A stretch of DNA of 64,000 bases from Felixounavirus LF82P1, in the sequence record OZ035762.1. One strand, 5' to 3'. The notes beneath the pieces were generated by a model. That model had not been told where the DNA came from, did no database searches, and saw nothing but the letters and a program-made list of their open reading frames with translations. Made by a program: the position numbers and the translations under genes. Positions 28,420-61,666 of this stretch are shown here, piece after piece. The number at the start of each line of letters is the position of its first letter. Within the stretch, counting starts at the first letter, position 1.

Positions 28420-28690
28420 AGAAAAGTGGGAGATTTTACCATTAGTCAGTGAAGGAGGTAATGGTTGTGAAATGTACATGATACGTGGTCATGTTCCAGA
28501 GCCAATTGCACTTGAGATGGTAAACAACTTTACAGATGGTTCTTACAAAGACTTAGGCGAACCAACTGTCAAGCAACAATGGGTTAAACCTGTACCAGAC
28601 AGCACAGGTAACTGTAGTGTACTTTATCACGTTGTAGACCCTGCAAAATGCAAATCTGCAATGGCAGTAACAAACGTAACTTTTGATTGA
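28412..28690 (+). CDS. hypothetical protein
   Basis: ORF track 92 aa. Confidence 0.4.
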   Translation: MAKEKWEILPLVSEGGNGCEMYMIRGHVPEPIALEMVNNFTDGSYKDLGEPTVKQQWVKPVPDSTGNCSVLYHVVDPAKCKSAMAVTNVTFD

Positions 28691-29583
28691 GAGAGAAAAC
28701 TATGAAAACATCTATCCGTGTTACAGTTCATTCACCAACTAAAGGAACTCATGAAGAAGAGTTTAACATCATCCAATTTCCTTCTGGTGAGATTGGTGGA
28801 CACTTTTCGCCAGAGTTTGTTGATTTCACTGCTTATGCAGCATCATCCATCAACAATGTGATTATGATTGTAAAAGGTTATGATAAGGATACATTGTTTG
28901 CTGTGGCACTTGCTAAAGAAGCAATTGATGATTTAATTCCTCATGATTATGCTTTAAAGACTGTCATCTTTTACTACTTACCAAATGCACGTTATGACCG
29001 TCACATGTTTAAAGGCGACGCAGCAGCTTTAAAGGTTTTTGCTAAACAGGTAAATGCAATGGGATTTGGTGCAGTCTGTGCAGTTGACCCTCACAGTTAC
29101 GTTCCAGATAACCTGTTTAACTGCTTCCAGAGTATTCCTCAAAAGGAGATTGCAGTCCACTATGCAAATGACCCACTGGTTGATTACTTAGTAGCCCCAG
29201 ATGCAGGTGCTGCTAAGAAGGTTGCAGAGACCGCTAAAGAGGTGGATAAACCATATATCACAATGTCTAAGGTGCGTAACCTTAAGACTGGTGAAATTAC
29301 TGGTATGCGAATCCTTGATGATGTTGATTTGACAGATAAAACCGTCATGATTCTGGATGATATCTGTGATGGTGGTCGAACCTTCATAGAAGCAGCTAAG
29401 CATCTTCGTGAAGCAGGTGCAAAACGTGTGGAACTCTATGTAACACATGGTATCTTCTCTAAAGATGTTGAAAACCTTCTTGACAATGGCATTGACCACA
29501 TCTACACTACAAACTCTTTAGGGGAAGCTAAAGACCGTGGCTTAACACATTATGGTCAAGTTACTGTAGCAAACCTTGATTGA
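28687..29583 (+). CDS. ribose-phosphate pyrophosphokinase-like (Prs fold; possible ADP-ribose pyrophosphokinase of NAD+ reconstitution pathway)
   Basis: 298 aa; PRTase-type motif VMILDDICDGGRT and PDAGAAKK; adjacent to NAMPT-like gene. Confidence 0.65.
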   Translation: MREKTMKTSIRVTVHSPTKGTHEEEFNIIQFPSGEIGGHFSPEFVDFTAYAASSINNVIMIVKGYDKDTLFAVALAKEAIDDLIPHDYALKTVIFYYLPNARYDRHMFKGDAAALKVFAKQVNAMGFGAVCAVDPHSYVPDNLFNCFQSIPQKEIAVHYANDPLVDYLVAPDAGAAKKVAETAKEVDKPYITMSKVRNLKTGEITGMRILDDVDLTDKTVMILDDICDGGRTFIEAAKHLREAGAKRVELYVTHGIFSKDVENLLDNGIDHIYTTNSLGEAKDRGLTHYGQVTVANLD

Positions 29584-29592
29584 AACTTTATA

Positions 29593-29613
29593 GGGGCTTA
29601 AAAGCCCCATTTT
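29593..29613 (+). terminator. hairpin / weak terminator
   Basis: GGGGCTT-AAA-AGCCCC then ATTTT. Confidence 0.4.
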
Positions 29614-29628
29614 GAGAGAGATTAAAAG

Positions 29629-31410
29629 ATGACTAAATCACTTTATGCAGTACCAGCAGGTTTAAATGCAGATGCTTACAAATCTGGTCATGTTTACCAG
29701 TATCCTAGCGCAACAGAGTACTTGATGTTCAATCTGACACCACGTAGCGACAAATGGTTTAACAGCCCCTTAGCAATTGACGGTGTAGTAGCTTTTGGTA
29801 TTCAACGTTTTGTTAAAGATTACTTGATAGACCACTGGAATGCCACTTTCTTTGAACGTGATAAAAAAGAAGCAATTGACGAAATCTTAGAAGTCATGAA
29901 TGGTGTTCTGGGTAAAGATGCTATAGGTCGAGAGCATTGGGAAGCACTTCACGACTTAGGCTATCTACCAGTTGAAGTATACGCTGTAGAAGAAGGCACA
30001 GTTGTCCCTATGCGTGTTCCGATGATTGTTTTCCAGAACACTGTTTCAGGTTTCCATTGGGTAGCAGGTTATCTGGAAGATGCTTTCTCTGCTGAGATTT
30101 GGAAGGCTTGTACCATTGCAACTATTGCATTGCACTACAAACGTATCTGTAAGAAGTGGGCTGACCTTACTTGTGACAACGACTTGCATTTACCTTATCA
30201 GTGCCATGACTTTGCTATGCGTGGTATGTCCGGCTTTACTGATGACGCATTTAACGCTGTAGGCCACTTAACCAGCTTTAAAGGAACTGATAGCTTTCCT
30301 GCTGTGTATACGGCTAAACGAATCTATGGACAGTCCTACCCAATCTCTGATATTGGTAGCTCTGTACCAGCCACTGAGCACTCTGTAATGTGTGCAAACA
30401 TTGCTTGGGAAGGTGGTAATGAGTTGATTGAAGAAGAAAGACGCTTTAAAGGTGAGTTACAAACCTTCCGTCGTTTCTTAACAGAAACTTACCCAACGGG
30501 TATTGCAAGTATTGTTTCAGATACTTATAACTTCTGGAGAACTGTGTCAGAAATCTTACCAGCACTCCGTAAAGAAATTATGGAACGTGACGGTAAGCTG
30601 GTAATTCGCCCTGACTCTGGAGACCCTGTACATATTGTCACAGGTTACAAAGCAATCCACTTAGAGTGTGCTAAAAAGGCTTATTACGAGCACCTAAGCA
30701 AGCTAGAGGCAAGTGATACAATGCTGAACTCTGTCCTGAACATGAAGCTTGAAAACATTAACTATGGTATTGCTGGATGGCTACTGTCAGAAGGCTACGA
30801 AATGGTTGTTGACAGAGAAGACTTTGAAGTTGCTGATACGGTGATGTTGAAGAATGCTTATATGGTTGGTTCTGCAAACGTTGTAACACGTCCTGTAGCT
30901 GAGATTGATGGGGCTATTAAGACACTGTATAACATCTTTGGAGGAACTATCAACTCTAAAGGTTTTAAAGTACTGGATGAGCATATCGGGCTTATTTATG
31001 GCGACTCTATCACGTTGGAACGTGCAAACGAAATACTGAAGCGTTTGTATGAAATGGGTTTTGCAAGCTCTAACGTAGTGTTTGGTGTAGGTTCTTACAC
31101 TTACCAGTACATGACTCGTGACACCTTTGCATTTGCTGTCAAAGCAACTCTTGCAAGCATTGGTGGTAAAGAGATTATGCTTGCAAAAGACCCTAAAACA
31201 GATAGTGGTGTTAAGAAGTCTGCTTTTGGTGGTGTAGCACCTATGTGGGATGGTGAAAATCTGAAAGCTGTAGATGGCTATGGGTTCCAGAGCTTTGCAG
31301 ATGCACTTGAACACCCAGCTTGTGCTTTGCGTCTAGTCTTTAGCGACTCTGAGCAGTTCGGTTACACAACTCTTGGTGATATTCGAAATAATATTGACAA
31401 GCAGCTTTAA
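29629..31410 (+). CDS. nicotinamide phosphoribosyltransferase-like (NadV/NAMPT family)
   Basis: 593 aa; NAMPT-like overall length and motifs (..GSDSxxxY.., HSVM, RPDSGD); paired with Prs-like gene. Confidence 0.7.
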   Translation: MTKSLYAVPAGLNADAYKSGHVYQYPSATEYLMFNLTPRSDKWFNSPLAIDGVVAFGIQRFVKDYLIDHWNATFFERDKKEAIDEILEVMNGVLGKDAIGREHWEALHDLGYLPVEVYAVEEGTVVPMRVPMIVFQNTVSGFHWVAGYLEDAFSAEIWKACTIATIALHYKRICKKWADLTCDNDLHLPYQCHDFAMRGMSGFTDDAFNAVGHLTSFKGTDSFPAVYTAKRIYGQSYPISDIGSSVPATEHSVMCANIAWEGGNELIEEERRFKGELQTFRRFLTETYPTGIASIVSDTYNFWRTVSEILPALRKEIMERDGKLVIRPDSGDPVHIVTGYKAIHLECAKKAYYEHLSKLEASDTMLNSVLNMKLENINYGIAGWLLSEGYEMVVDREDFEVADTVMLKNAYMVGSANVVTRPVAEIDGAIKTLYNIFGGTINSKGFKVLDEHIGLIYGDSITLERANEILKRLYEMGFASSNVVFGVGSYTYQYMTRDTFAFAVKATLASIGGKEIMLAKDPKTDSGVKKSAFGGVAPMWDGENLKAVDGYGFQSFADALEHPACALRLVFSDSEQFGYTTLGDIRNNIDKQL

Positions 31411-35642: not shown

Positions 35643-36191
35643 ATGAAGAAATTGATTATAGGTTTGTGCTTAATGTTTACAGCACACTTATCTTATGCAG
35701 TTGACTGCCCAGAGCTATCAATTAGCCAAAAAGTGAACATGTTAAAAGCTTACCAGTATGGCGAGAATAACATGGGTAAAGGTTGGGGTATCACTCTAGC
35801 AGCTATAGCCTTACAAGAGTCAGAGTTAGGTCTGAAGGTAGAAAATAAAAAGACACATGATTATGGTATTTTCCAGAATCACTTGAAGACTGTTGTAAAG
35901 CGTAACAAAATTAGCCCTAATGTGGCTAAAAAGAAACTCTTAAGAGACTTTGATTATGCTGCGAAGGAAACTCACAAAGAGCTTGAGTTTTGGACAAAGG
36001 TGCATGGTCAGCCAAAGTCAAAGAAGACTTTACAAAAAGTTTTAGCATCATATAATGCTGGGTATTCGTACAGAATCCCTAAAGCTAAGAAGTATTCTCA
36101 AGATGTCTATAACAACATGAAAGTAATTGCTCAATGTGAATTTGCAACAAACATTTCTAAGGTAAATCATGAAAAAATTAAGAAAGTCTGA
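35643..36191 (+). CDS. secreted lytic transglycosylase (SLT domain)
   Basis: 182 aa; signal peptide; SLT motifs ALQESELG (catalytic E-S), GIFQ, ASYNAGYSY. Confidence 0.6.
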   Translation: MKKLIIGLCLMFTAHLSYAVDCPELSISQKVNMLKAYQYGENNMGKGWGITLAAIALQESELGLKVENKKTHDYGIFQNHLKTVVKRNKISPNVAKKKLLRDFDYAAKETHKELEFWTKVHGQPKSKKTLQKVLASYNAGYSYRIPKAKKYSQDVYNNMKVIAQCEFATNISKVNHEKIKKV

Positions 36192-36864
36192 TGAAGTACT
36201 GTGTCATGCTTATGACTTACATCCTCATGAGTTAGGTCTTGATTCCTGTGTATGGTCTCCAGAACAGTGTAGGGATTTTGAAGACACTGCAAGAGAAGTT
36301 GTATGTTCACTTGAAGAGTTCCACACATCAGAACCAATTGTGAACGTTGTGGACAAAGAGACTGGACAATCTATAGGAGTAAGTCGTGATAGCTTAGTCA
36401 TAGTCAATAAAGACCTTGTAGAAAAAGGGAATCTCATCTTAGCAGATATTGATGGTGTTCTTACAAATTTTAATCACGAAGATTGTTCAACGGAATTGAC
36501 TGATGGGTCATTCTCACAGTACACTAATCTTCTTGATTCTGTAAGAGCAAAACCAACGTATGTTTTTAGTATTATTGATGCAATTGCTAATCATGCTGCC
36601 ATTGGACTCTTGACAGCGAGAGGTGAATCTCAGAGAATACCTACTGAGATGTTTTTAAGGCATAACATAGAGCATGACTACATGCTTTTTATGCGTGGTT
36701 TTGGAACTAACTCTATAAGTGCAGAAAGTTTGAAAGTGAGGATGATTCAGTCTTGCATCCTGCCTTACTTTAATATAGTATGTTTTATAGAAGACACAGA
36801 GAAGAATGTGCAGAAGGTGAACAGAATCCTTCCACACATTAAAACCATGTTAGTTAAACATTGA
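36169..36864 (+). CDS. hypothetical protein
   Basis: ORF track 231 aa. Confidence 0.45.
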   Translation: MKKLRKSDEVLCHAYDLHPHELGLDSCVWSPEQCRDFEDTAREVVCSLEEFHTSEPIVNVVDKETGQSIGVSRDSLVIVNKDLVEKGNLILADIDGVLTNFNHEDCSTELTDGSFSQYTNLLDSVRAKPTYVFSIIDAIANHAAIGLLTARGESQRIPTEMFLRHNIEHDYMLFMRGFGTNSISAESLKVRMIQSCILPYFNIVCFIEDTEKNVQKVNRILPHIKTMLVKH

Positions 36865-37339: not shown

Positions 37340-37351
37340 GGTTAAGATACA

Positions 37352-37372
37352 GGCTCCTTCGGGAGCCTTTTT
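37352..37372 (+). terminator. rho-independent terminator
   Basis: GGCTCC-TTCG-GGAGCC + TTTTT. Confidence 0.6.
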
Positions 37373-37391: not shown

Positions 37392-37739
37392 ATGACATTT
37401 AAAGAGTTCTGTCAAGCTACTTTCATAATTGTTTTCTTAGTTGGTGCAGGTGTCTGGGGAGGATACTCTTACAGAGACTATCAAGTTGCTGAAACTGAGC
37501 TAAATAATGAGAAACTAATAAGTGTTGCTAAAGATGCTTATCAGGAAGGTTTAGCCACACTCAGCACCAATTACAAAAATGATTTGAAAGATGTGCTTGC
37601 TAAGAATAAGCATACAAAAGAGGTACTAACATATGAAAAAACTAAGCCAGAGTTTTATAATGTTTGTGTTACTGATAACTATGTCAGGGTGTTCAACGAA
37701 CAAAGTGAGCAGTACATTCAAAAACTCCCAAGTAAGTGA
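37392..37739 (+). CDS. i-spanin-like (Rz-type) protein
   Basis: 115 aa; N-terminal TM segment then coiled-coil-like region; o-spanin-like ORF starts inside its 3' end. Confidence 0.5.
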   Translation: MTFKEFCQATFIIVFLVGAGVWGGYSYRDYQVAETELNNEKLISVAKDAYQEGLATLSTNYKNDLKDVLAKNKHTKEVLTYEKTKPEFYNVCVTDNYVRVFNEQSEQYIQKLPSK

Positions 37740-37902
37740 GGGTGATAAGTACACCCAAGAAGAATCACGGTATATCATCAAAGGCAACACAGGCAGCGAT
37801 GTAGCAGCAGCCCTTGAGTTCTATCGTGACGGCTTTTACCAGTGCACAATCAAAGCTAACAACCTTATTGACATGATTTTATTAGGGAATAAGCAGCAAT
37901 GA
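37633..37902 (+). CDS. o-spanin-like (Rz1-type) lipoprotein, overlapping
   Basis: 89 aa; signal + lipobox LLITMSGC; starts within previous ORF in another frame. Confidence 0.5.
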   Translation: MKKLSQSFIMFVLLITMSGCSTNKVSSTFKNSQVSEGDKYTQEESRYIIKGNTGSDVAAALEFYRDGFYQCTIKANNLIDMILLGNKQQ

Positions 37903-38168
37903 CAGAGAATCAAGATACTTTTTACGTAGAAGGGTACTTACTGTTACCACGACCAAAAGAGACTTATATGCGAATTGATTTCTCACCAACCATTATGGAT
38001 AATGTGATGTGCCATATCTTTATGCAAGGTGTCACAGCACAGCTTAAACATGTTGGTAAAGAGTGCAAAATAAAGGTTGACACTCATCCAGAAATCAAAG
38101 AGAATCACTACACATGGTTCTTACCAGATTCTAAAGAAATCTTAGCAGTTCTTAAAACGAGGAAGTAA
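37899..38168 (+). CDS. hypothetical protein
   Basis: ORF track 89 aa. Confidence 0.4.
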   Translation: MTENQDTFYVEGYLLLPRPKETYMRIDFSPTIMDNVMCHIFMQGVTAQLKHVGKECKIKVDTHPEIKENHYTWFLPDSKEILAVLKTRK

Positions 38169-38170
38169 CT

Positions 38171-38497
38171 ATGCAGATTAATGGAAGAGACTTTGTAGCC
38201 GTTTACTATGAGAAAGGTAAAGAAGTTGGCGTAGCACAAGTATCTTACGGCAATGGTAAGTGGCTATATGGAACAATCGCAGTAGTAGGAACAAGAAGTG
38301 ATACAAAAACCTTTAAAGATTGTGTTGACCTTCTTGAAGAATCCATCCAGAATCATTGGTGTCTGATATGGATGACTGATAACGAAGTGATGGAGCGTTT
38401 CAAAAAGATTGATATCAACATTGACAGTATTGAGCATGTTGATTTATATGAACTAACTGAGAAGGTAAACTATGAAAGTAATACTAGCCAGAGATAA
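38171..38497 (+). CDS. hypothetical protein
   Basis: ORF track 108 aa. Confidence 0.4.
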   Translation: MQINGRDFVAVYYEKGKEVGVAQVSYGNGKWLYGTIAVVGTRSDTKTFKDCVDLLEESIQNHWCLIWMTDNEVMERFKKIDINIDSIEHVDLYELTEKVNYESNTSQR

Positions 38498-38699
38498 AAA
38501 GACACGAAAACTTATAAGGTCAGCAGTATTCATTGGACGAAATGAGGTCATCCCATTTACAGCAAATGATGTGATAGCTTACAGGAAGAACTTAGTATTC
38601 ACTGACTGCTTACGTGGCTTCATCTCTGAACCATTGGAAGACTTTAAAAGTCGTTGTGGTAAAGGTATCATCATTCAAGAGGCAATTATTCATGGCTGA
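38472..38699 (+). CDS. hypothetical protein
   Basis: ORF track 75 aa. Confidence 0.35.
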   Translation: MKVILARDKKTRKLIRSAVFIGRNEVIPFTANDVIAYRKNLVFTDCLRGFISEPLEDFKSRCGKGIIIQEAIIHG

Positions 38700-38892
38700 C
38701 TTCTGTAAAGACTGTTCTATCGAAATGTTCGGACGTGATACAGGTGACTTAAAAGGTCTTATCACTGAAGATGATTTTAAAGCTGGTTATGCAATGCCAG
38801 TAATCTGTGAAGGTTGTGGGTGCATCTGGGTAGACCATGAGGGGCAACGTGTAAAACCTTCAGAAGATAAAGAATCTTGGGAGAGATGCTAA
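38692..38892 (+). CDS. small Cys-rich protein
   Basis: ORF track (38614) trimmed to ATG overlapping upstream stop; CKDC..CEGCGC. Confidence 0.35.
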   Translation: MADFCKDCSIEMFGRDTGDLKGLITEDDFKAGYAMPVICEGCGCIWVDHEGQRVKPSEDKESWERC

Positions 38893-39678
38893 ATGGGTAT
38901 TGTAAAAATCATCAATGGTGATATCTTTGCTGCATTTGATAAAGGTAAGTTTGACATCATTGGTCATGGTTGTAACTGCATGAACCTAATGGGCGCAGGT
39001 ATCGCTGACAAGATTTCTAAACTTTACCCAAAAGCATATGAGACCGATACAGAAGTTTATCTCTATGCAGGTGGTATAGGTCACAAACCCTGTGAGAATT
39101 TACTAGGTAATTTCTCTGTAGCACGCTTAAAACAAGGTCGTATAGCTAACCTTTACACTCAGCTTAAGACTGGTAAAGATGCCCGATACAGTGCTTTAGA
39201 GTCATCTTTGAAACAGCTTAACAGATACTGTGAAGTCAATCAGTTGAAGAAAGTTGGTTTACCTATGATTGGTGCAGGTATCGGTGGACTTGACCCTCAA
39301 GCCGTCACAGTTATCATCAATCAGGTGATGAAGAGTGTAGATGTTTATCTATATGTCTATGAAGGAGAGATGTACCACAAGTTACTCTCAGGTTGGAAGA
39401 ACTACTGTGAACCAGAATACTTTGCAGGTGTAGCAGTGTTCACAGATAACGCAGTTACCCTCTTCAGACGAAGAAAAGGTAAGATACATCAAAGTAACCC
39501 TCCGGTTGAAAAGATGTCTCTAAGTAACGCTCTAGTTACCCACCTGTCAAAGAGCAATCACAGAATTGCTGTAACATTTGGTAGTGATGCAGAAGCTTAT
39601 ATCTATGCAAGAACTGATGAGGATATTGAGGCAATCTTCTCTTCACCAGAAGTTACCTTCTTAGACGCAAAGAACTAA
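38893..39678 (+). CDS. macro-domain protein (ADP-ribose binding/processing)
   Basis: 261 aa; N-terminal IINGDIF..DIIGHGCNC..GAGIA pattern typical of macro domains; second Gly-rich stretch MIGAGIGG. Confidence 0.5.
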   Translation: MGIVKIINGDIFAAFDKGKFDIIGHGCNCMNLMGAGIADKISKLYPKAYETDTEVYLYAGGIGHKPCENLLGNFSVARLKQGRIANLYTQLKTGKDARYSALESSLKQLNRYCEVNQLKKVGLPMIGAGIGGLDPQAVTVIINQVMKSVDVYLYVYEGEMYHKLLSGWKNYCEPEYFAGVAVFTDNAVTLFRRRKGKIHQSNPPVEKMSLSNALVTHLSKSNHRIAVTFGSDAEAYIYARTDEDIEAIFSSPEVTFLDAKN

Positions 39679-40106
39679 GAAACTCTGTAGGATATTCACA
39701 ATAGCCTAAGCCTTTCTTATCTGGTAAATTTTTCAGGTAAGGAGGGCTTTTTCATTTCAGATTTGTGCAGGTAGATTTCTCTACAGAACTCTATAGAGAA
39801 AATTTTGAACTCCAAAGAGAAAATTCATTTTCAAACTGTGCAGGTAATCTCCAAAGAGCTTTTTCATTTTCAAAACGTGCAGACCCCGCTCAGGTCGGGC
39901 AAGAAAAATCATTTTAGAATTGTGCAGGTAGGTTTTTATAGACAGCCAGCCCAACCCCTCTCCCCCTCTTACTCCCCCTCTCCCCAAAAGTCAAGAGAAA
40001 AATTTGTAGCGGATTGAAAAATAATTCTTGATTTGCGTTCTGTTTTGTGGTAGTCGTGCGCACCCGTTTCATTACAGTTTTGCCAAAAATATTTTTAAAA
40101 TTTTTA

Positions 40107-40135
40107 TTGACTCTTTGAACGTGGTTATCTAATAT
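40107..40135 (+). promoter_or_regulatory. sigma70-like promoter TTGACT-N17-TAATAT
   Basis: Consensus-like -35/-10 with 17-nt spacer immediately upstream of first conserved leader cassette. Confidence 0.5.
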
Positions 40136-40198
40136 TTACATCAACGGGGAGGGAATGACCTTTCCCACTAAATAAAATCCTAAACTGGAGATTCAAAA

Positions 40199-40387
40199 AT
40201 GGCATCAAGAAAAATTAAAGTTGGCGATGAGGTTAACATTAAGCACGAATACTCTTACAAAATGCTAACTATACGCTCTTATAAGGTTTATCAGGTGGAA
40301 GCTATCCACAAAGATAATACTTTTTCCTTAAAAGGGTATAGCGAACGTTTCCCTGCTGAACTCTTTGAGAAATGGAGCGCGAAATAA
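40199..40387 (+). CDS. hypothetical small protein (array member)
   Basis: 62 aa; preceded by type A cassette. Confidence 0.45.
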   Translation: MASRKIKVGDEVNIKHEYSYKMLTIRSYKVYQVEAIHKDNTFSLKGYSERFPAELFEKWSAK

Positions 40388-40593
40388 TGCTTTACAGTCG
40401 TGAATTGATGGTTACAACTAACGTTAACACAAAGGTAAAACGTTTTTACATGCAAATTTGTGGCGTATGGTCTAGAATATCAGAAGCTGACTATTGCAAC
40501 TATGTAGAAACAGCTATAAACTCTAATTGCTACCTTACAAGAAATACTAAGAATTTTACAAGGCAAACAGCGATTTACTATTACGATAAATAA
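40387..40593 (+). CDS. hypothetical small protein (array member)
   Basis: ORF track 40372 trimmed to ATG overlapping upstream stop (TAATG). Confidence 0.4.
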   Translation: MLYSRELMVTTNVNTKVKRFYMQICGVWSRISEADYCNYVETAINSNCYLTRNTKNFTRQTAIYYYDK

Positions 40594-56599: not shown

Positions 56600-58015
56600 A
56601 TGAGCGAATTATTTAAACATGCGCACCTTCATGCAGGTCGAACTGAAAATGGTGCTGTAAACCATACTTCATCAATGTCTGCTCTTGTAGACTTTTACAA
56701 AGCTGCTGGTTCAAGCCGTAGCAATGTAGAAATCTTACCAGACCTGTTCTACAAAGCTTTGCGTGAGGATGTTGATGTTGCAGTTCGTATTTTACTGCAT
56801 ATGCGAGATGTACGAGAAGGTATGGGTGAGCGTAAAGCCTTCAGAACTGTTTTGCTTCAAGCAATTGAAGATAAAGTTTTAGAGCCTACACAGGTTCTTC
56901 GCATTATGGATAAGATTGCAGAACTTGGTCGTTTTGATGACTTCAAAATCTTCGTAGGTACTCGTTTCGAGACAGATGCCTTCAAACATTTAGAAGCAGC
57001 ATTACTAGACCCTGCAACAGCAGGTTTGGCAGCTAAGTGGTTACCACGAGTAAAACCACGTCACAAACAGTTTGTAAAACGTTTCTGCAAGTTTGCAAAC
57101 TTGAGTGAGAAGGAGTATCGCACACTGTTATCTGCACTGTCTGATACGGTTGAGCAAAAAATCTCTGCTAATGAGTTTGGTAAGATTGACTACAGTAAGA
57201 TTCCTTCACTTGCTGCTGCACGTTACCAAAAACTCTTTAACCGTAAAGATGGAGAACGCTACAAAGCTTACATTGAGTCCTTATCAAAGGGCGAGACTAA
57301 GATTAATGCTGGTGCTGTTTATCCATACGATGTGATTAAATCTGTTAAGTATGGTAATGCAGATGTTGCTAATGAGCAGTGGAAAGCACTACCAAACTGG
57401 ATGGCAGAGGGTGAAAACATTCTATGTATGTCTGATGTTTCAAGTTCAATGTCTTGGGTGAATTTTGGTTCAATTACTGCTCTTGATATTGGTGTTTCAC
57501 TTGCATTGTATGTAGCAGAACGTAATACAGGTTGCTTTAAGAATGAGTTGATGGTTTATTCAACAAACCCTCACTTCATTGAACTGAGTGGTGATTTACG
57601 AAACCGTCATCGTCAGGTGATGCGACACGTTGAATATGGCTCAACTAACTTACAAGCAGCTTTTGACCGTATTCTTGAGACAGGTAAAAGAAACAACTTG
57701 ACTCAGAAAGATATGCCAAGTAAGCTTATCATCTTCTCCGATATGGAGTTCAATCAGGTTGATGGAGCTAACGGTCGTACAAACTTTGAAGCAATTCAGA
57801 GTAAGTACAAAAAAGCTGGATATGAGATGCCACAACTGGTATTCTGGTACTTAGCAAACCGTAATGGTACTTGCGAAGTATCTGTTAAGGATAACGGTGT
57901 AGCAATGGTATCAGGGTTCTCTCCAGCCACTTTAAAAGCTCTGCTTGGTGGTGAGAAGTTTGACCCAATCAGTGTAATGCTCAAAGCAGTAATGATTGAC
58001 CGTTATATCTGGTAA
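56600..58015 (+). CDS. Ro60-like protein (TROVE-like N-terminus + von Willebrand A domain)
   Basis: 471 aa; C-terminal vWA MIDAS motif CMSDVSSSM then ..GSTN.. and ..FSDMEF..; N-terminal helical region resembling TROVE. Confidence 0.55.
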   Translation: MSELFKHAHLHAGRTENGAVNHTSSMSALVDFYKAAGSSRSNVEILPDLFYKALREDVDVAVRILLHMRDVREGMGERKAFRTVLLQAIEDKVLEPTQVLRIMDKIAELGRFDDFKIFVGTRFETDAFKHLEAALLDPATAGLAAKWLPRVKPRHKQFVKRFCKFANLSEKEYRTLLSALSDTVEQKISANEFGKIDYSKIPSLAAARYQKLFNRKDGERYKAYIESLSKGETKINAGAVYPYDVIKSVKYGNADVANEQWKALPNWMAEGENILCMSDVSSSMSWVNFGSITALDIGVSLALYVAERNTGCFKNELMVYSTNPHFIELSGDLRNRHRQVMRHVEYGSTNLQAAFDRILETGKRNNLTQKDMPSKLIIFSDMEFNQVDGANGRTNFEAIQSKYKKAGYEMPQLVFWYLANRNGTCEVSVKDNGVAMVSGFSPATLKALLGGEKFDPISVMLKAVMIDRYIW

Positions 58016-58180: not shown

Positions 58181-58257
58181 CTCTGTTTAGCTCAGCTTGG
58201 TAGAGCGTTCCGTTTGGGGCGGTAAGGCCGGAGGTTCAAGTCCTCCAACAGAGACCA
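58181..58257 (+). tRNA. tRNA-Pro (anticodon TGG)
   Basis: acceptor CTCTGTT/AACAGAG, anticodon loop TTTGGGG, T-arm GGAGG-TTCAAGT-CCTCC, CCA encoded. Confidence 0.8.
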
Positions 58258-58264
58258 AATTAAT

Positions 58265-58342
58265 GTTCCAGTAGACAAAATGGTATAGTCACCACTCTTT
58301 CAAAGTGGACATCTGAGGGTTCAAATCCCTTCTGGAACGCCA
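58265..58342 (+). tRNA. tRNA-Glu (anticodon TTC)
   Basis: acceptor GTTCCAG/CTGGAAC, anticodon stem CCACT/AGTGG loop CTTTCAA, T-loop TTCAAAT, CCA. Confidence 0.75.
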
Positions 58343-58344
58343 GT

Positions 58345-58425
58345 TTTGACAGAAGACCAAATACAGCAAACTTAATCTTATTCATCTGAAGGTAAATCGG
58401 ACAAAGAAGAGATTTGGTCTGGTCA
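58345..58425 (+). repeat. structured repeat copy 1 (AGACCAAAT ... ATTTGGTCT helix enclosing about 45-nt insert)
   Basis: 9-bp inverted repeat; conserved AGAAGACC..TACAGCAA box. Confidence 0.45.
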
Positions 58426-58433
58426 TTAAGAAT

Positions 58434-58510
58434 TGCGGGTATAGAGAAAGGGCGTCTCACATGTCTCATTAGCATGGTATCGGCAGGTTCGACTCCTGCA
58501 CCCGCCTCCA
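58434..58510 (+). tRNA. tRNA with anticodon CAT (Met/Ile-lysidine type), atypical acceptor
   Basis: D-stem GAGA/TCTC, anticodon stem CATGT/GCATG loop CTCATTA, T-arm GCAGG-TTCGACT-CCTGC, CCA; 1-72 pairing imperfect. Confidence 0.45.
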
Positions 58511-58583
58511 AATTTACAGAAGACCGTTTACAGCAACATTTATTAAATTTTTAGCGGAAAAATTGAAAGATACGGTCTGGTAA
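58511..58583 (+). repeat. structured repeat copy 2 (AGACCGT ... ACGGTCT helix)
   Basis: Box AAATTTACAGAAGACCGTTTACAGCAA identical to copy 4. Confidence 0.45.
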
Positions 58584-58593
58584 TACTAAACAT

Positions 58594-58670
58594 GGTTAGG
58601 AAGCACATAAGGTATGTGCGGTCGCCTGTTAAGCGAATGGCACAGGGTTCGAATCCCTGACTAACCGCCA
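58594..58670 (+). tRNA. tRNA-Asn (anticodon GTT)
   Basis: acceptor GGTTAGG/ACTAACC, D-stem GCAC/GTGC, anticodon loop CTGTTAA, T-arm CAGGG-TTCGAAT-CCCTG, CCA. Confidence 0.75.
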
Positions 58671-58739
58671 AATTTAGGAGAGAAGCGATTGCTCACCGAT
58701 TTGTAAGGTGCAAGTCCTTAGCCTGAATAGAAATTAAAT

Positions 58740-58827
58740 GTGTCGTTATCCCGTAGATGGTAGCGGTGGGGACTGTAAATCCCTTGTCATTGAGACTCGG
58801 TAGGTTCGACTCCTACACGGCACACCA
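58740..58827 (+). tRNA. tRNA-Tyr (anticodon GTA), long variable arm
   Basis: acceptor GTGTCGT/ACGGCAC, anticodon stem GGGGA/TCCCT loop CTGTAAA, variable arm about 15 nt, T-arm GTAGG-TTCGACT-CCTAC, CCA. Confidence 0.75.
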
Positions 58828-58832
58828 ATAAA

Positions 58833-58910
58833 GGTTATGTAGTTTAATTTGGTTAAAATACTCCCCTGTCACGGGAGATGATGAGGGTTCAAATCCCTTC
58901 GTAACCGCCA
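58833..58910 (+). tRNA. tRNA-Asp (anticodon GTC)
   Basis: acceptor GGTTATG/CGTAACC, anticodon stem CTCCC/GGGAG loop CTGTCAC, T-loop TTCAAAT, CCA. Confidence 0.8.
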
Positions 58911-58965
58911 ATTTTGAGAGGGCTATTTAGCCCCTCCCTTAAAGGGTTCTTACGAGTATCCTTTA

Positions 58966-59046
58966 AAGGAGCAGAAGACCAAATACAGCAAGTTACTTAA
59001 AATTTCAAGCCAATTTAATTTTGAAAAATTTAAAACTTGGTCTGGC
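58966..59046 (+). repeat. structured repeat copy 3 (AGACCAA ... TTGGTCT helix)
   Basis: Same conserved box AGAAGACCAAATACAGCAA; compensatory stem changes vs copies 2/4. Confidence 0.45.
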
Positions 59047-59051
59047 TCAAC

Positions 59052-59190
59052 AAATTTACAGAAGACCGTTTACAGCAAAACTTAAACAATCTATTTCTCG
59101 GTAAAGAAAAGGCGAAGGTTCGATTCCTTCACTCGGCAGATGTCGAGTTGGTGTAATGGTAGCACTTAAGATGATAAACAACGGTCTGGT
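59052..59190 (+). ncRNA. candidate Y-RNA-like element: terminal helix (AGACCGTT/AACGGTCT) enclosing a circularly permuted tRNA-like module
   Basis: Order T-arm GAAGG-TTCGATT-CCTTC (59114-59130), acceptor 3' ACTCGGC, 4 nt, acceptor 5' GTCGAGT (7 bp complementary), D-arm-like GGTGTAATGGTAGCAC; no anticodon arm. Confidence 0.35.
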
Positions 59191-59338
59191 AATTATCTTT
59201 GTAGATAAGTTATTAAGCTTACCTGTGAGTATGCGACCACAAAGGGTGAAAGGGTAAATTCTAGATTTAAACCCAAAAAGGCACATCGCTACAGACCTTA
59301 AGCAAGTCTGGGTAGCTTATCTACAAAGATAATTTAAT

Positions 59339-59414
59339 GGAAGTGTAGCAGAATGGTGATGCGGCAGACTTTTAATCTGACAGGCGATGGGTTCGAATCC
59401 CTCCACTTCTACCA
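59339..59414 (+). tRNA. tRNA-Lys (anticodon TTT)
   Basis: acceptor GGAAGTG/CACTTCT, anticodon loop CTTTTAA, T-loop TTCGAAT, CCA; paralog of Lys-CTT tRNA with compensatory anticodon-stem change. Confidence 0.7.
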
Positions 59415-59418
59415 ATAT

Positions 59419-59495
59419 GGTTCAGTCGCAGATAAGGTAATGCAAGGGTCTCATAAGCCCTATGAATGTGGGTTCGAATCCCATCTGAACCTCCA
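59419..59495 (+). tRNA. tRNA-Met (anticodon CAT)
   Basis: acceptor GGTTCAG/CTGAACC, anticodon stem AGGGT/GCCCT loop CTCATAA, T-arm GTGGG-TTCGAAT-CCCAT, CCA. Confidence 0.75.
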
Positions 59496-59497
59496 AT

Positions 59498-59572
59498 TGT
59501 GGGTTAGCATAAATGGTAATGCAAACGGCTGATAACCGTTAGAAGAGGGTTCGATACCCTCACCTACAACCA
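59498..59572 (+). tRNA. tRNA-Ile (anticodon GAT)
   Basis: acceptor TGTGGGT/ACCTACA, D-stem GCAT/ATGC, anticodon stem AACGG/CCGTT loop CTGATAA, T-arm GAGGG-TTCGATA-CCCTC, CCA. Confidence 0.75.
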
Positions 59573-59587
59573 AGTTCAATAAAGTTG

Positions 59588-59616
59588 TTGACATTGAGAT
59601 GTGACTACTTTATAGT
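59588..59616 (+). promoter_or_regulatory. sigma70-like promoter TTGACA-N17-TATAGT inside tRNA cluster
   Basis: Near-consensus -35 and -10 with 17-nt spacer. Confidence 0.55.
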
Positions 59617-59820
59617 AACCTTAGTTTTCGTTGCGTAGCGTCTATTTTGCAAATTTAAAATAAATGCAAACGACAATGTTTTTCTGGCAGTAGCTTGATA
59701 GGCTAAACACCAGTGAGGTCTTCCAATCCCTCATCAAAGAATTTGGCGTACTCGCCCACGGTATGATTAATAAGGTGGGCATCTTTAAGGGCTTTCTAAG
59801 AGAGTCTTTAAAGATAATTA

Positions 59821-59902
59821 CGGGGCGTATCTCAGCGGTCTTCTAAACCGCCGTTAACCGAGTAAGTGGAGTATGCGGGTTCGAGTCCTGCCGCCTCGAC
59901 CA
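59821..59902 (+). tRNA. atypical tRNA-like gene, anticodon loop CTTCTAA (TCT, Arg-type), D-arm apparently absent
   Basis: acceptor CGGGGCG/CGCCTCG, perfect anticodon arm GCGGT-CTTCTAA-ACCGC, T-arm GCGGG-TTCGAGT-CCTGC, CCA; only 7 nt between acceptor and anticodon stem, 23-nt region before T-arm. Confidence 0.4.
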
Positions 59903-60045
59903 ATTTAGTTAGCAGATTACTTAGACGACCTAAGCGGGTCTTCCTGTAGGGAGGTGGTCTGTATCTCATGTTTTCCAGAACATGTAAATAATCTGAGAAG
60001 GGGCTTTACAGTGTTGAGATAATACGGTAAGCTTCGAATTATAGT

Positions 60046-60128
60046 ATGGGACGATGTTAAGACTCTAAGGCATGAGCAACGGCCTCCAAAACCGTTTCAA
60101 AGGGGTTCAACTCCTCCGTCCCATGCCA
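60046..60128 (+). tRNA. tRNA-Trp (anticodon CCA), atypical extended D region
   Basis: acceptor ATGGGAC/GTCCCAT, anticodon loop CTCCAAA with stem ACGGC/ACCGT, T-loop TTCAACT, CCA; about 8 extra nt before D-stem. Confidence 0.45.
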
Positions 60129-60141
60129 AAGTCTTATTAGG

Positions 60142-60229
60142 GGTAGGTAGCGGCTAATGGCAGCCAAACAGTCTTGAAAACTGTTGCCACTGTAGAGATA
60201 CGGTGAGGGTTCGACTCCTTTACTTACCG
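60142..60229 (+). tRNA. tRNA-Ser (anticodon TGA), long variable arm
   Basis: acceptor GGTAGGT/ACTTACC, 3-bp D-stem, anticodon arm ACAGT-CTTGAAA-ACTGT, about 20-nt variable arm, T-loop TTCGACT; CCA not encoded. Confidence 0.7.
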
Positions 60230-60388
60230 CCTAATAAGATTTTTAAAGCCAAGCTTCATTCGGATGTTGCTTTGGTATCCCTCGTGTATTGTCGTACACA
60301 CTGATAAAACACCTAGTAGGTGTCACGGAGAAGAGATAATATCAAGCTCTCCAAAGGTTCTAGTCACCGGATTAAACAAGACTATGCA

Positions 60389-60412
60389 AAGACCTTTTAG
60401 GTCTTTTTAGAG
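60389..60412 (+). terminator. hairpin + T-run inside tRNA cluster spacer
   Basis: AAGACC-TTTT-AGGTCTT followed by TTTT. Confidence 0.4.
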
Positions 60413-60487
60413 GGCTTCTAAGGTTATTACAGCTTGTTGTGGAACCTTGTTGCTTAGGTTCTTAGAAGTTCTCTAAAAAGATTTAAT

Positions 60488-60565
60488 GGGAGATTGACGG
60501 TAATTGGTAAACCTATCTCGCTTAGAACGAGATGTTTGAGGGTTCGAATCCCTTGTCTCCTACCA
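60488..60565 (+). tRNA. tRNA with anticodon TAG (Leu by anticodon), short variable arm
   Basis: acceptor GGGAGAT/GTCTCCT, anticodon arm ATCTCG-CTTAGAA-CGAGAT, T-arm GAGGG-TTCGAAT-CCCTT, discriminator A, CCA. Confidence 0.6.
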
Positions 60566-60572
60566 AATTAAT

Positions 60573-60648
60573 GCAGGTGTAGCAAAATGGTTATGCGGCT
60601 GACTCTTAATCAGTAAGACGATGGGTTCAATTCCCTCCACCTGTACCA
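60573..60648 (+). tRNA. tRNA-Lys (anticodon CTT)
   Basis: acceptor GCAGGTG/CACCTGT, anticodon arm GCTGA-CTCTTAA-TCAGT, T-loop TTCAATT, CCA. Confidence 0.75.
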
Positions 60649-60654
60649 AACAAT

Positions 60655-60730
60655 GGGGTCATAGTTTATATGGTTAAAATTCGAGTTTTGCAAACTTGGG
60701 AACTGAGTTCAATTCTCAGTGACTCCACCA
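60655..60730 (+). tRNA. tRNA-Ala (anticodon TGC)
   Basis: acceptor GGGGTCA/TGACTCC (G3-U70), anticodon arm CGAGT-TTTGCAA-ACTTG, T-arm CTGAG-TTCAATT-CTCAG, CCA. Confidence 0.75.
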
Positions 60731-60736
60731 ATTAGT

Positions 60737-60811
60737 GCATCCATAGTTTAAACGGGAAAATTACAGTCTTCCAAACTGAGGTTGAGGGTTCGATTCCCTC
60801 TGGATGCTCCA
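60737..60811 (+). tRNA. tRNA-Gly (anticodon TCC)
   Basis: acceptor GCATCCA/TGGATGC, anticodon loop CTTCCAA, T-arm GAGGG-TTCGATT-CCCTC, CCA. Confidence 0.8.
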
Positions 60812-60825
60812 AATTAAGGTGTGAT

Positions 60826-61239
60826 ATGAAAATATGCAGTACTTGCAGAATACCAAAAGATGAAAGCTTATTCCATAAGAATAAGAACAAGAAAGACGGT
60901 CTTCAAAGTCAATGCAAAGATTGTGCAAGACTCCGTGATGCAAAGAGTTATCAAGCAAATGATAAAAGGAAAGAGGCTATTAAAAGCACTCGTAACTTCA
61001 AGAGAGAGCATAACAAGACTCTAGCTAGAAGGTACAAAGCTTTATGCAAATGTCATATATGTGGTGAGAAAGAACCAGTTGCACTGGATTTACACCATAC
61101 AGACCCTTCCCAGAAAGATTTGAATCCTGCATCACTTTATTCATACTCCACAAAAAGATTAAAAGATGAAATCAGAAAGTGCATTGTCTTGTGCGCTAAC
61201 TGTCACAGAAAAGTACATGCTGGTATCATAAAAGTTTAA
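60826..61239 (+). CDS. HNH homing endonuclease inserted in tRNA cluster
   Basis: 137 aa; CxxC..CxxC and HNH motif CHICG..LDLHH..CANCHRKVH. Confidence 0.65.
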   Translation: MKICSTCRIPKDESLFHKNKNKKDGLQSQCKDCARLRDAKSYQANDKRKEAIKSTRNFKREHNKTLARRYKALCKCHICGEKEPVALDLHHTDPSQKDLNPASLYSYSTKRLKDEIRKCIVLCANCHRKVHAGIIKV

Positions 61240-61240
61240 T

Positions 61241-61317
61241 GCTGCTTTCGTATAATTGGCTATTACACATCCCTTGTAAGGATGGAAATGCAGGTTCGAG
61301 TCCTGTGAGCAGCACCA
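61241..61317 (+). tRNA. tRNA-Thr (anticodon TGT)
   Basis: acceptor GCTGCTT/GAGCAGC, anticodon arm CATCC-CTTGTAA-GGATG, T-arm GCAGG-TTCGAGT-CCTGT, CCA. Confidence 0.8.
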
Positions 61318-61487: not shown

Positions 61488-61488
61488 T

Positions 61489-61566: not shown

Positions 61567-61571
61567 ATTTT

Positions 61572-61647: not shown

Positions 61648-61666
61648 ATTTAAAGAGGCTATTTAG

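What the first reader, a model, noticed from the sequence alone, without database searches (positions are those of the whole stretch)
38893..39678. Macro-domain protein at the end of the early block, possible ADP-ribosylation counter-defence
The N-terminus (IINGDIF...DIIGHGCNC...GAGIA) follows the macro-domain pattern for ADP-ribose binding or hydrolysis. In phages such domains are candidates for reversing host ADP-ribosylation or degrading ADP-ribose-derived signals. It is encoded in the same genome as the NAD+ module.
Basis: inference. Interest (0 to 1): 0.45.

Follow-up and report, generated by a model that had tools for sequence, protein, structure and literature searches.

The report
Phage macrodomain hydrolase with orphan tail domain
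This gene of a FelixO1-like phage does encode a macrodomain (ADP-ribose-processing) enzyme of a family that other phages use to undo bacterial ADP-ribose-based defences; it is an ordinary member of a now-known kind, apart from an extra C-terminal domain of unknown role.

Summary
ORF 38893..39678 (+, 261 aa) has a macro domain at aa 1-157: Pfam PF01661 scores 32.4 bits against a cut-off of 22, and the AF2 model's nearest folds are TARG1, DarG and Poa1p. The window is a Felixounavirus.

The domain belongs to the widespread phage Poa1p-like family (PHROG 335). Two members have assigned roles:
- T4 Tk.4/AdfM is needed to escape DarTG2.
- Vibrio phage Gary Adpp is an ADPR-1''-phosphate phosphatase that lets NARP1 beat aRES.

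The Felix domain is closer to T4 AdfM (34% identity) than to Adpp (27%). It shares AdfM's short active-site loop, whereas macros in or beside NARP1 operons have longer loops. It nevertheless forms its own clade. The phage also carries NARP1 about 7.5 kb upstream.

My best reading is an AdfM-like remover of DarT2 ADP-ribose from phage ssDNA (~0.45). The main rival is Adpp acting in trans for NARP1 (~0.25).

They form a confidently folded domain found only in Ounavirinae-type phages, with no sequence or structural relatives. It is under purifying selection but evolves much faster than the macro domain (dN/dS 0.20 vs 0.01).

New member of a known kind; moderate-to-low interest.

The parts
38893..39678 (+). 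Complete CDS, 261 aa, two domains (macro + orphan C-terminal domain).
   Evidence: ORF list. PHROG 335 match over aa 1-260, E=5e-113. AF2 pLDDT 89.4, pTM 0.88. Annotated as 'putative phosphatase', 'O-acetyl-ADP-ribose deacetylase' or 'hypothetical' in relatives.
38893..39363 (+). Macro domain (aa 1-157), Poa1p-like / T4 Tk.4 family. Key residues are H25 (38965-38967), N28 (38974-38976), the G34-A35-G36 loop, Q90 (39160-39162), K95, and the P124-x-I-G-A-G-I-G-G loop.
   Evidence: Pfam PF01661 at 32.4 bits, above GA 22. Foldseek matches to TARG1, DarG and Poa1p. 34% identity to T4 Tk.4, E=3e-24. Invariant residues from alignments. The H-x-C-N-C motif aligns to Poa1p H23/N26. Q90 aligns to TARG1 K84. 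dN/dS 0.011.
39364..39675 (+). C-terminal domain (aa 158-261): a helix followed by a six-stranded beta unit and a short helix. It is restricted to Ounavirinae-type phages and its function is unknown.
38880..38885 (+). Shine-Dalgarno GGAGAG, 9 nt before the ATG. The ATG directly follows the TAA of the upstream 66-aa ORF.
   Evidence: Read directly from the sequence.
39708..39749 (+). Intrinsic terminator closing the transcription unit (17-bp stem, 8-nt loop, T-run).
   Evidence: Terminator scan. The same element is annotated as a terminator in ASO1A and KhF3.
28687..31410 (+). NARP1 operon: Adps-like (28687..29583) and Namat-like (29629..31410). It is a possible functional partner if the macro domain acts as an ADPR-1''-P phosphatase. 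It is not in the same transcription unit.
   Evidence: Pfam Pribosyltran/Pribosyl_synth and NAPRTase/NAMPT_N. NARP1 was defined on genes 79-80 of Bas63, a Felixounavirus. The order Namat - rIIA - rIIB - ... - macro+CTD is conserved in divergent relatives.

Best explanation
The gene encodes a catalytically competent macrodomain hydrolase of the phage Poa1p-like / T4 Tk.4 family, fused to a lineage-specific C-terminal domain.

Proposed mechanism: the macro domain binds the ADP-ribose moiety through its two glycine-rich loops. It then hydrolyses the bond at C1'' of the distal ribose.

Most likely substrate: ADP-ribose attached by the host toxin DarT2 to thymidine in single-stranded phage DNA. On this reading the protein acts like T4 AdfM, an orphan antitoxin that keeps phage DNA replicable on hosts carrying DarTG2.

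Proposed residue roles:
- Gln90 sits where TARG1 and DarG have their catalytic lysine. It would position the distal ribose, as shown for Gln85 of SCO6735.
- Asn28 corresponds to the asparagine needed for activity in PhiKZ AdfM.

Because the chemistry is the same (loss of the C1'' substituent), the enzyme may also dephosphorylate ADPR-1''-phosphate. It could thereby serve the phage's own NARP1 pathway.

Shown here: fold, family membership, conserved active-site residues, purifying selection, synteny. Inferred: substrate, counter-defence role, role of the C-terminal domain.
For: 1. Macro fold and family.
2. Best characterised relative by sequence is T4 Tk.4: 34% identity, 82 bits, E=3e-24, aligned end to end. 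Deleting it sensitises T4 to DarTG2.
3. DarG is the only hit in PADLOC (E=4e-13). It is also the only hit in NCBIfam (E=1.5e-12). TARG1 and DarG are the top structural neighbours.
4. Asn28 is invariant across the Felix clade, T4 AdfM, PhiKZ AdfM (N23, whose mutation reduces activity) and DarG.
5. Gln90 aligns to TARG1 K84 and DarG K80. SCO6735 has Gln85 there, Q85A is dead, and the enzyme removes ADPr from thymidine in DNA. The missing lysine therefore does not argue against DNA de-ADP-ribosylation.
6. The loop after Gln90 is 10 residues long, as in T4-type macros. Every macro in or beside a NARP1 operon has a 13-17 residue loop. At 60%-identity cluster level, NARP1 lies within 10 kb for 0 of 17 short-loop clusters and 7 of 25 long-loop clusters (Fisher p=0.03).
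7. There is no darT or other ART gene nearby, so it is an orphan, as expected for a phage anti-toxin.
8. Very strong purifying selection on the macro part (dN/dS 0.011).
Against: - No experiment exists on this protein or on any Felixounavirus versus DarTG2; literature searches found none.
- T4 AdfM's role is genetic only and comes from a preprint. Its enzymatic activity was not assayed.
- T4 AdfM is itself 35% identical to the biochemically proven ADPR-1''-P phosphatase Gary Adpp. Similarity to Tk.4 therefore does not fix the substrate.
- In the tree the two-domain Ounavirinae clade (98% support) is separate from both the T4 and Gary clades, and deep nodes are unresolved.
- The phage carries NARP1, and the Felix loop has a basic residue (K95) where Gary/Ceto have Arg and T4 has Pro.
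- The NCBIfam DarG score is far below its cut-off (47.5 against 250).
- PhiKZ AdfM, the biochemically proven one, is a true DarG-like macro with the lysine. That is a different subfamily.
Confidence: 0.45

Rival explanations
1. Adpp acting in trans. The macro domain is an ADPR-1''-phosphate phosphatase. RES-domain defences (aRES) cleave NAD+ to nicotinamide plus ADPR-1''-P, which the phage's NARP1 enzymes cannot use. The macro enzyme would remove the phosphate to give ADPR, which Adps and Namat (28687..31410) rebuild into NAD+.
For: - NARP1 is present in the window. It was defined experimentally in the congeneric Bas63.
- Gary Adpp is a Poa1p-like macro of the same family and is 27% identical to the Felix domain (52 bits, E=5e-14).
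- The Felix N-terminus carries the Poa1p H-x-C-N-C motif, including the His that corresponds to Poa1p H23.
- aRES occurs in E. coli, Klebsiella and Enterobacter.
- The order Namat - rIIA - rIIB - ... - macro+CTD is conserved across deep Ounavirinae divergence.
- K95 matches the Arg of Gary/Ceto in the loop after Gln90.
Against: - The gene is not in the NARP1 operon. It lies 7.5 kb, at least 9 genes and three terminators downstream.
- Macros in or beside NARP1 operons lie within about 0.4-7 kb, mostly within 2 kb, and always have a 13-17 residue loop, whereas Felix has the 10-residue T4-type loop.
- The Felix domain is less similar to Adpp than to T4 Tk.4.
- The synteny is lineage-wide vertical inheritance, so it counts as a single observation.
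Confidence: 0.25
2. A hydrolase for another ADP-ribosylated macromolecule. Candidates are ADP-ribosylated mRNA (CmdTAC-type defence), ADP-ribosylated host or phage proteins, or products of a phage-encoded ADP-ribosyltransferase. The C-terminal domain would supply the target specificity.
For: - The nearest solved relative by sequence, TARG1, acts on proteins as well as DNA, and SCO6735 acts on both.
- Macro domains as a superfamily accept many C1''/C2''-linked substrates.
- The fast-evolving extra domain could be a targeting module.
Against: - No ART gene was found among the ten neighbouring ORFs.
- No member of this phage family has been linked to protein or RNA substrates.
- The CmdTAC paper reports no macrodomain counter-defence.
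- The C-terminal domain's charge is not conserved (pI 4.8-9.5). That argues against a conserved nucleic-acid-binding role.
Confidence: 0.12
3. A housekeeping 'phosphatase' or deacetylase of small ADP-ribose metabolites (Appr-1''-p from RNA repair, or O-acetyl-ADP-ribose from sirtuins). This is what current database annotation implies, with no role in counter-defence.
For: - Annotated as 'putative phosphatase' or 'O-acetyl-ADP-ribose deacetylase' in relatives.
- Poa1p-like motif.
- A HAD/polynucleotide-kinase-like gene lies 2 kb upstream (36169..36864). This hints at RNA-end repair functions in the region.
Against: - These annotations are transferred from the T4 'A1pp motif' note, not tested.
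- No Tpt1/KptA or 2H phosphoesterase partner was seen among the neighbours.
- Both characterised family members act in counter-defence.
Confidence: 0.08
4. A non-catalytic ADP-ribose reader or sponge, for example one that sequesters ADPR-derived immune signals.
For: Some macro domains only bind ligand. The canonical catalytic Lys and Asp of TARG1 are absent.
Against: - Gln at the Lys position is catalytically essential in the active enzyme SCO6735.
- The Asn and His of active relatives are invariant.
- Family members are active enzymes.
- Known phage sponges for ADPR-derived signals belong to other folds (my own knowledge).
Confidence: 0.04

Closest known systems
T4 Tk.4 = AdfM (anti-DarT factor Macrodomain; preprint 10.1101/2025.11.20.689424)
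   Same: - 34% identity over the whole macro domain.
- Same motifs: HGCNC, NLYTQ, P-x-IGAGIG.
- Same 10-residue loop after the Gln.
- Orphan gene with no adjacent toxin, in a virulent myovirus of enterobacteria.
   Different: - T4 Tk.4 is a single 155-aa domain, whereas this protein has an extra 104-aa C-terminal domain.
- The two form separate clades.
- The loop has TGKD here instead of PGPN.
- T4-type loci show no NARP1 within 10 kb, whereas this phage has NARP1.
Adpp of Vibrio phage Gary (KNV71_gp137), the ADPR-1''-P phosphatase of NARP1-AP (preprint 10.64898/2026.01.28.702374)
   Same: - Same Poa1p-like phage macro family: 27% identity, E=5e-14.
- H-x-C-N-C motif and Gln at the catalytic-Lys position.
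- Basic residue in the loop (R in Gary, K95 here).
- The phage also encodes Adps and Namat.
   Different: - Adpp sits between adps and namat, whereas this gene is 7.5 kb away in another transcription unit.
- Adpp has a 17-residue loop, against 10 here.
- Adpp has no C-terminal domain.
DarG antitoxin of DarTG2, and PhiKZ gp104 AdfM (PMC13309987)
   Same: - Macro fold, and top structural match.
- Conserved Asn (PhiKZ N23 = N28 here).
- Like DarG, a two-domain architecture with the macro domain N-terminal.
   Different: - DarG and PhiKZ AdfM have the catalytic Lys in FPTK; here it is Gln.
- Similarity is weak: PDB phmmer E=8e-4 to 5e-3, against 1e-24 for PhiKZ AdfM.
- The C-terminal domain is unrelated to DarG's DarT-binding domain in both sequence and fold.
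- There is no adjacent darT.
SCO6735 of Streptomyces coelicolor (PDB 5E3B; PMC9411070)
   Same: - ALC1-like macrodomain with Gln in place of the catalytic Lys.
- That Gln is essential.
- The enzyme removes thymidine-linked ADP-ribose from DNA.
   Different: - Very low sequence similarity (E=0.49).
- It is bacterial and chromosomal.
- It has an extra mobile loop not examined here.
Yeast Poa1p (PDB 6LFQ) and human TARG1/OARD1 (PDB 4J5R)
   Same: - Nearest solved structures.
- The N-terminal H-x-C-N-C ... G-x-G-I-A motif aligns with Poa1p, including H23.
- The C-terminal half aligns with TARG1.
   Different: - Poa1p S30 is Leu here.
- TARG1 K84 and D125 are Gln and Gly here.
- Both are eukaryotic and single-domain.

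Membership tests
Macro domain superfamily (Pfam PF01661) | Profile match above the curated gathering score | tested here: met
   32.4 bits against 22; E=1e-7; aa 25-141 cover profile positions 2-117 of 118.
Macro domain superfamily (Pfam PF01661) | Three-layer alpha/beta/alpha macro fold | tested here: met
   AF2 pLDDT 89.4. Foldseek TM 0.8-0.85 (normalised to the target) to TARG1 and DarG; 224 PDB matches at E<=1e-3, the top-ranked ones nearly all macro domains.
Macro domain superfamily (Pfam PF01661) | Two glycine-rich ADP-ribose/phosphate-binding loops | tested here: met
   M33-G34-A35-G36-I-A38 and P124-x-I-G127-A-G129-I-G-G are invariant or nearly so in the family.
ALC1-like macro hydrolases (TARG1 / DarG) | Closest structural neighbours belong to this class | tested here: met
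   The nine best-ranked Foldseek PDB hits are TARG1, Taq DarG, Mtb DarG and Poa1p.
ALC1-like macro hydrolases (TARG1 / DarG) | Catalytic lysine (TARG1 K84, DarG K80) | tested here: not met
   Gln90 aligns to that position and is invariant in the family. The Gln variant is active in SCO6735.
ALC1-like macro hydrolases (TARG1 / DarG) | TARG1 Asp125 partner of the dyad | tested here: not met
   A Gly in IGAGIGG aligns to D125. DarG also lacks this residue.
DarG antitoxin (NCBIfam NF048014; PADLOC DarG) | Equivalog score cut-off | tested here: not met
   47.5 bits against a cut-off of 250; only profile positions 4-150 of 338 match.
DarG antitoxin (NCBIfam NF048014; PADLOC DarG) | C-terminal DarT-binding (ssDNA-mimic) domain | tested here: not met
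DarG antitoxin (NCBIfam NF048014; PADLOC DarG) | Adjacent darT toxin gene | tested here: not met
   Ten flanking ORFs have no DarT or ART hit in PADLOC or Pfam.
T4 Tk.4-type AdfM | End-to-end homology of the macro domain with shared motifs and the short post-Gln loop | tested here: met
   34% identity, E=3e-24. HGCNC, NLYTQ and IGAGIG are shared. The loop is 10 residues in both.
T4 Tk.4-type AdfM | Same clade as T4 Tk.4 (orthology) | tested here: inconclusive
   NJ tree: the Ounavirinae two-domain clade has 98% support and the T4 clade 87%. They are not sisters, and the deep nodes have 1-47% support.
T4 Tk.4-type AdfM | Single-domain ~155-aa architecture | tested here: not met
   261 aa, with an added 104-aa domain.
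T4 Tk.4-type AdfM | Required for plating on DarTG2 hosts; removes ADPr from dT in ssDNA | not testable with these tools
   Needs phage genetics and enzymology. No published data for Felixounavirus were found.
Adpp (NARP1-AP ADPR-1''-P phosphatase) | Homology to Gary KNV71_gp137 | tested here: met
   27% identity, 52 bits, E=5e-14. This is weaker than the match to T4 Tk.4.
Adpp (NARP1-AP ADPR-1''-P phosphatase) | Encoded within the NARP1 operon (within two genes of adps/namat) | tested here: not met
   The macro start is 7.5 kb downstream of the namat end. rIIA, rIIB and three terminators lie between them. In related contigs the distance from the macro start to the centre of the adps/namat match is 8.4-9.8 kb.
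Adpp (NARP1-AP ADPR-1''-P phosphatase) | NARP1 (adps + namat) present in the same genome | tested here: met
   28687..29583 and 29629..31410. NARP1 was defined in Bas63, a Felixounavirus.
Adpp (NARP1-AP ADPR-1''-P phosphatase) | Extended (13-17 residue) loop after the active-site Gln, seen in every macro in or beside a NARP1 operon that was sampled (an empirical feature found here, not part of a published definition) | tested here: not met
   The Felix loop is 10 residues. NARP1 lies within 10 kb for 0 of 17 short-loop clusters and 7 of 25 long-loop clusters, p=0.03.
Adpp (NARP1-AP ADPR-1''-P phosphatase) | ADPR-1''-P phosphatase activity; rescue of NARP1 on aRES hosts | not testable with these tools
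   Needs LC-MS enzymology and plaque assays.

The most novel reading that the evidence does not exclude
The fast-evolving, fold-orphan C-terminal domain could be a second, stoichiometric counter-defence module. On this reading it binds and blocks a host immune protein while the macro domain removes that protein's product. The target could be DarT2, in analogy to the unrelated toxin-binding domain of DarG, or an NAD+-cleaving effector such as aRES. The Ounavirinae protein would then be a convergently built two-function orphan antitoxin. Alternatively, one enzyme could serve both the anti-DarTG2 and the NARP1-support roles.
Probability: 0.15. Interest if true: 0.6.

Novelty: new member of a known kind. 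Interest (0 to 1): 0.3.

Why it matters
Felixounaviruses are common therapeutic and model coliphages and Salmonella phages, and Bas63 is the phage in which NARP1 was discovered. If this macro enzyme neutralises DarTG2, supplies ADPR to NARP1 on aRES hosts, or does both, it would be a host-range determinant. It would also be a simple genetic handle for testing how the two recently described roles of one macro family (AdfM and Adpp) relate to each other.

In practical terms:
- The current database label 'phosphatase' should read macrodomain ADP-ribosyl hydrolase, candidate anti-defence.
- The C-terminal domain deserves to be recorded as a separate domain of unknown function.

Tried and rejected
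- DarG membership: rejected. The score is far below the cut-off, there is no DarT-binding domain and no neighbouring toxin.
- Nucleic-acid binding by the C-terminal domain: disfavoured, because its charge is not conserved (pI 4.8-9.5).
- Conserved partnership with the upstream small ORF: rejected. The upstream gene differs in the divergent relatives: a Zn-ribbon in two, an unrelated 103-aa protein in the third.
- Literature on Felixounavirus, Ounavirinae or Bas63 versus DarTG: none found.
- CmdTAC link: the paper reports no macrodomain counter-defence.
- Assigning function by phylogeny: the deep nodes are unresolved, so it did not decide between AdfM and Adpp.
- Structured RNA in or after the gene: only one sub-threshold Rfam hit.
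Full report
**What is there.** The window is a Felixounavirus genome segment, 99.9% identical over the 2.5-kb query (window 38000-40500) to Felixounavirus NRG857CP1. A GGAGAG Shine-Dalgarno lies 9 nt upstream, and the start codon directly follows the stop of a 66-aa upstream ORF. A strong intrinsic terminator at 39708-39749 follows the gene, and the same element is annotated in homologous phages. The gene is the last of a co-directional unit that begins after a terminator at 37351-37368. That unit also contains Rz-like spanin genes, so 'early' expression is plausible but not shown.

**Macro domain.**
- Pfam Macro (PF01661) matches aa 25-141 at 32.4 bits, against a gathering score of 22.
- PHROG 335 ('phosphatase') matches the whole protein at E=5e-113.
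- DarG is the only hit in NCBIfam (47.5 bits, far below the 250-bit equivalog cut-off). It is also the only hit in PADLOC (E=4e-13, macro part only).
- An AlphaFold2 model built on 30 homologues is confident (pLDDT 89.4, pTM 0.88). Its nearest solved structures are TARG1, Thermus and Mycobacterium DarG, and yeast Poa1p (E about 1e-9 to 1e-8, TM about 0.8).

**Active site.** Across 30 family members the invariant residues are H25, G26, N28, C29, M33, G36, A38, P46, G72, N86, L87, T89, Q90, P124, G127 and G129.
- The motif H-G-C-N-C...M-G-A-G-I-A aligns with Poa1p I-H-S-C-N-C...G-G-G-I-A, including Poa1p H23.
- N28 is also conserved in DarG and in PhiKZ AdfM, where the N23 mutation reduces activity.
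- Q90 occupies the position of the catalytic lysine of TARG1 (K84) and DarG (K80).
- This substitution is not disabling. The ALC1-like enzyme SCO6735 has Gln85 there, Q85A is inactive, and the enzyme removes ADP-ribose from thymidine in DNA (PMC9411070).

**Which known phage function?** Macro domains are very common in myoviruses (PMC9503650), and this family is found in about 2,800 of 50,697 phage records. Two members now have assigned roles.
- (i) T4 Tk.4, renamed AdfM. Transposon and clean-deletion data show it is needed for growth on DarTG2 hosts, but its enzymology has not been done (preprint 10.1101/2025.11.20.689424). The gene lies between tk and vs, as do the T-even hits. The Felix macro domain aligns with it end to end (34% identity, 82 bits, E=3e-24).
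- (ii) Adpp of Vibrio phage Gary, encoded between adps and namat. It dephosphorylates ADPR-1''-P, the product of the RES-domain defence aRES, so that NARP1 can rebuild NAD+ (preprint 10.64898/2026.01.28.702374). The Felix domain is 27% identical to it (52 bits).

T4 Tk.4 and Gary Adpp are themselves 35% identical (77 bits). The two 'functions' therefore sit in one family, and similarity alone cannot decide between them.

PhiKZ AdfM is the biochemically proven DNA de-ADP-ribosylase (PMC13309987). It is a true DarG-like macro with the FPTK lysine and belongs to a different subfamily.

**Link to the NAD+ module.**
- The window carries an adjacent PRPS-like gene (28687..29583) and NAMPT-like gene (29629..31410).
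- This is the pair shown in Bas63, a Felixounavirus, to be Adps and Namat of NARP1 (10.1101/2024.02.11.579819).
- The macro gene starts 7.5 kb downstream of namat, beyond rIIA, rIIB and three terminators.
- The order namat - rIIA - rIIB - ... - macro+CTD is conserved in two divergent metagenomic relatives whose macro domains are 38-43% identical.
- The same order holds across the ends of the linear genome record of Erwinia phage phiEa104.
- This is lineage-wide synteny and counts as a single observation, but it keeps the Adpp-in-trans idea alive.

**Discriminating tests run here.**
- (a) Phylogeny. The two-domain Ounavirinae proteins form their own clade (98% bootstrap). It is separate from the T4 clade (87%) and the Gary/Ceto clade (100%). 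Deep nodes are unresolved. A second macro found inside a NARP1 operon (Vibrio phage K460) falls elsewhere, so such operon macros look polyphyletic in this weakly supported NJ tree.
- (b) Active-site loop. I compared 79 IMG/VR loci with 10-kb flanks. The loop from Q90 to the conserved Tyr is 10 residues in the Felix and T4 types. Every macro with NARP1 genes nearby has a 13-17 residue loop. At 60%-identity cluster level, leaving out the Felix type, NARP1 lies within 10 kb for 0 of 17 short-loop clusters and 7 of 25 long-loop clusters (Fisher p=0.03).
- The Felix type is the only short-loop cluster with NARP1 within 10 kb, and it is also among the most distant from it.
- Against this, the Felix loop has a basic residue (K95; K or R in the seven two-domain relatives I read). 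Gary and Ceto have Arg at that position and T4 has Pro.

On balance the sequence features lean to the T4/AdfM type, but only modestly.

- Residues 158-261 fold confidently as a helix followed by six beta-strands and a short helix.
- Among viral models only the SUSP2 orthologue matches.
- In 1.84 billion protein representatives, only macro+CTD proteins of the same lineage match, plus hits to large repeat proteins that look spurious; the one I read is a beta-propeller-type repeat protein.
- The domain is unrelated to DarG's DarT-binding domain.
- It diverges much faster than the macro domain: 54/23/16% against 82/53/43% identity for three relatives.
- Among eight Felixounaviruses, dN/dS is 0.20 for this domain against 0.011 for the macro domain. 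It is therefore constrained but plastic.
- Its net charge is not conserved (pI 4.8-9.5), which argues against a conserved nucleic-acid-binding role.
- A rapidly evolving protein-binding module is an attractive but untested idea. Candidate partners are a defence protein or the NARP1 enzymes.

**Context checks.** Ten neighbouring ORFs have no DarT, ART or other defence-related match, so the macro gene is an orphan rather than part of a phage-borne toxin-antitoxin pair. The upstream small ORF is not conserved in the divergent relatives. No structured RNA was detected.

**Verdict.** This is a genuine, strongly conserved macrodomain ADP-ribosyl hydrolase of the phage Poa1p-like / Tk.4 family.
- Most probable job (about 0.45): removing DarT2-made ADP-ribose from thymidines of phage ssDNA, i.e. 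AdfM-like.
- Main rival (about 0.25): dephosphorylating ADPR-1''-P for the phage's own NARP1, i.e. Adpp in trans.
- The two are chemically similar and not mutually exclusive.

It is a new member of a known kind and is already annotated as a macro protein or 'phosphatase' in public records. The only unusual feature is the orphan C-terminal domain. Interest is moderate to low. Its value lies in a cheap, decisive experiment in Bas63 and in correcting the annotation.

Noticed in passing
window 39750-39930 (intergenic, after the terminator): There are three exact-pattern copies of a 22-nt motif, TCATTTYMRAWYTGTGCAGGTA, at 39752, 39825 and 39909. A fourth, degenerate copy lies near 39863. About 0.02 matches are expected by chance. 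They sit inside a roughly 520-bp gene-free gap that is conserved in related phages. They could be iterated protein-binding sites or a phage-specific promoter or regulatory array.
   Followed up: partly
window 28687-31410: A PRPS-like and a NAMPT-like gene pair lies directly upstream of rIIA. This is the NARP1 (Adps + Namat) NAD+ reconstitution operon first described in the congeneric phage Bas63.
   Followed up: partly
L003 (T4 tk.4) vs L014 (Vibrio phage Gary KNV71_gp137); loci L019-L097: T4 AdfM (anti-DarTG2) and Gary Adpp (ADPR-1''-P phosphatase) are 35% identical (E=2e-23), so they belong to one family with two assigned roles. The length of the loop after the active-site Gln tracks NARP1 adjacency: NARP1 lies within 10 kb for 0 of 17 clusters with a 10-residue loop and 7 of 25 clusters with a 12-17-residue loop (the NARP1-adjacent ones all have 13-17). 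This may be a substrate-specificity marker.
   Followed up: partly
window 38692-38892: A 66-aa ORF with CxxC...CxxCxC cysteines (a likely zinc ribbon) has its stop codon abutting the macro start codon. One divergent relative has a different Zn-ribbon ORF in the same place, and another has an unrelated 103-aa ORF.
   Followed up: partly
window 36169-36864 and 35643-36191: A HAD-type 'polynucleotide kinase'-like protein (PHROG 3970) and a weak SLT-like protein lie just downstream of rIIB. Both are conserved in the same position in divergent Ounavirinae-like contigs.
   Followed up: no
window 37392-37902: The Rz-like i-spanin and an overlapping o-spanin ORF lie in the same co-directional unit as the macro gene. 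This makes the 'early block' label uncertain.
   Followed up: no
window 58181-63585: An array of 25 tRNA genes is interspersed with small ORFs of DUF7338 and DUF7217. A 471-aa DUF2828/DUF7788 protein (56600..58015) lies immediately upstream.
   Followed up: no
L012 (Vibrio phage K460) 1-6122: In K460 the Adps-macro-Namat operon lies just downstream of rIIA and rIIB. Felixounaviruses have the same neighbourhood of genes (rII, NARP1, macro) in a different order.
   Followed up: no
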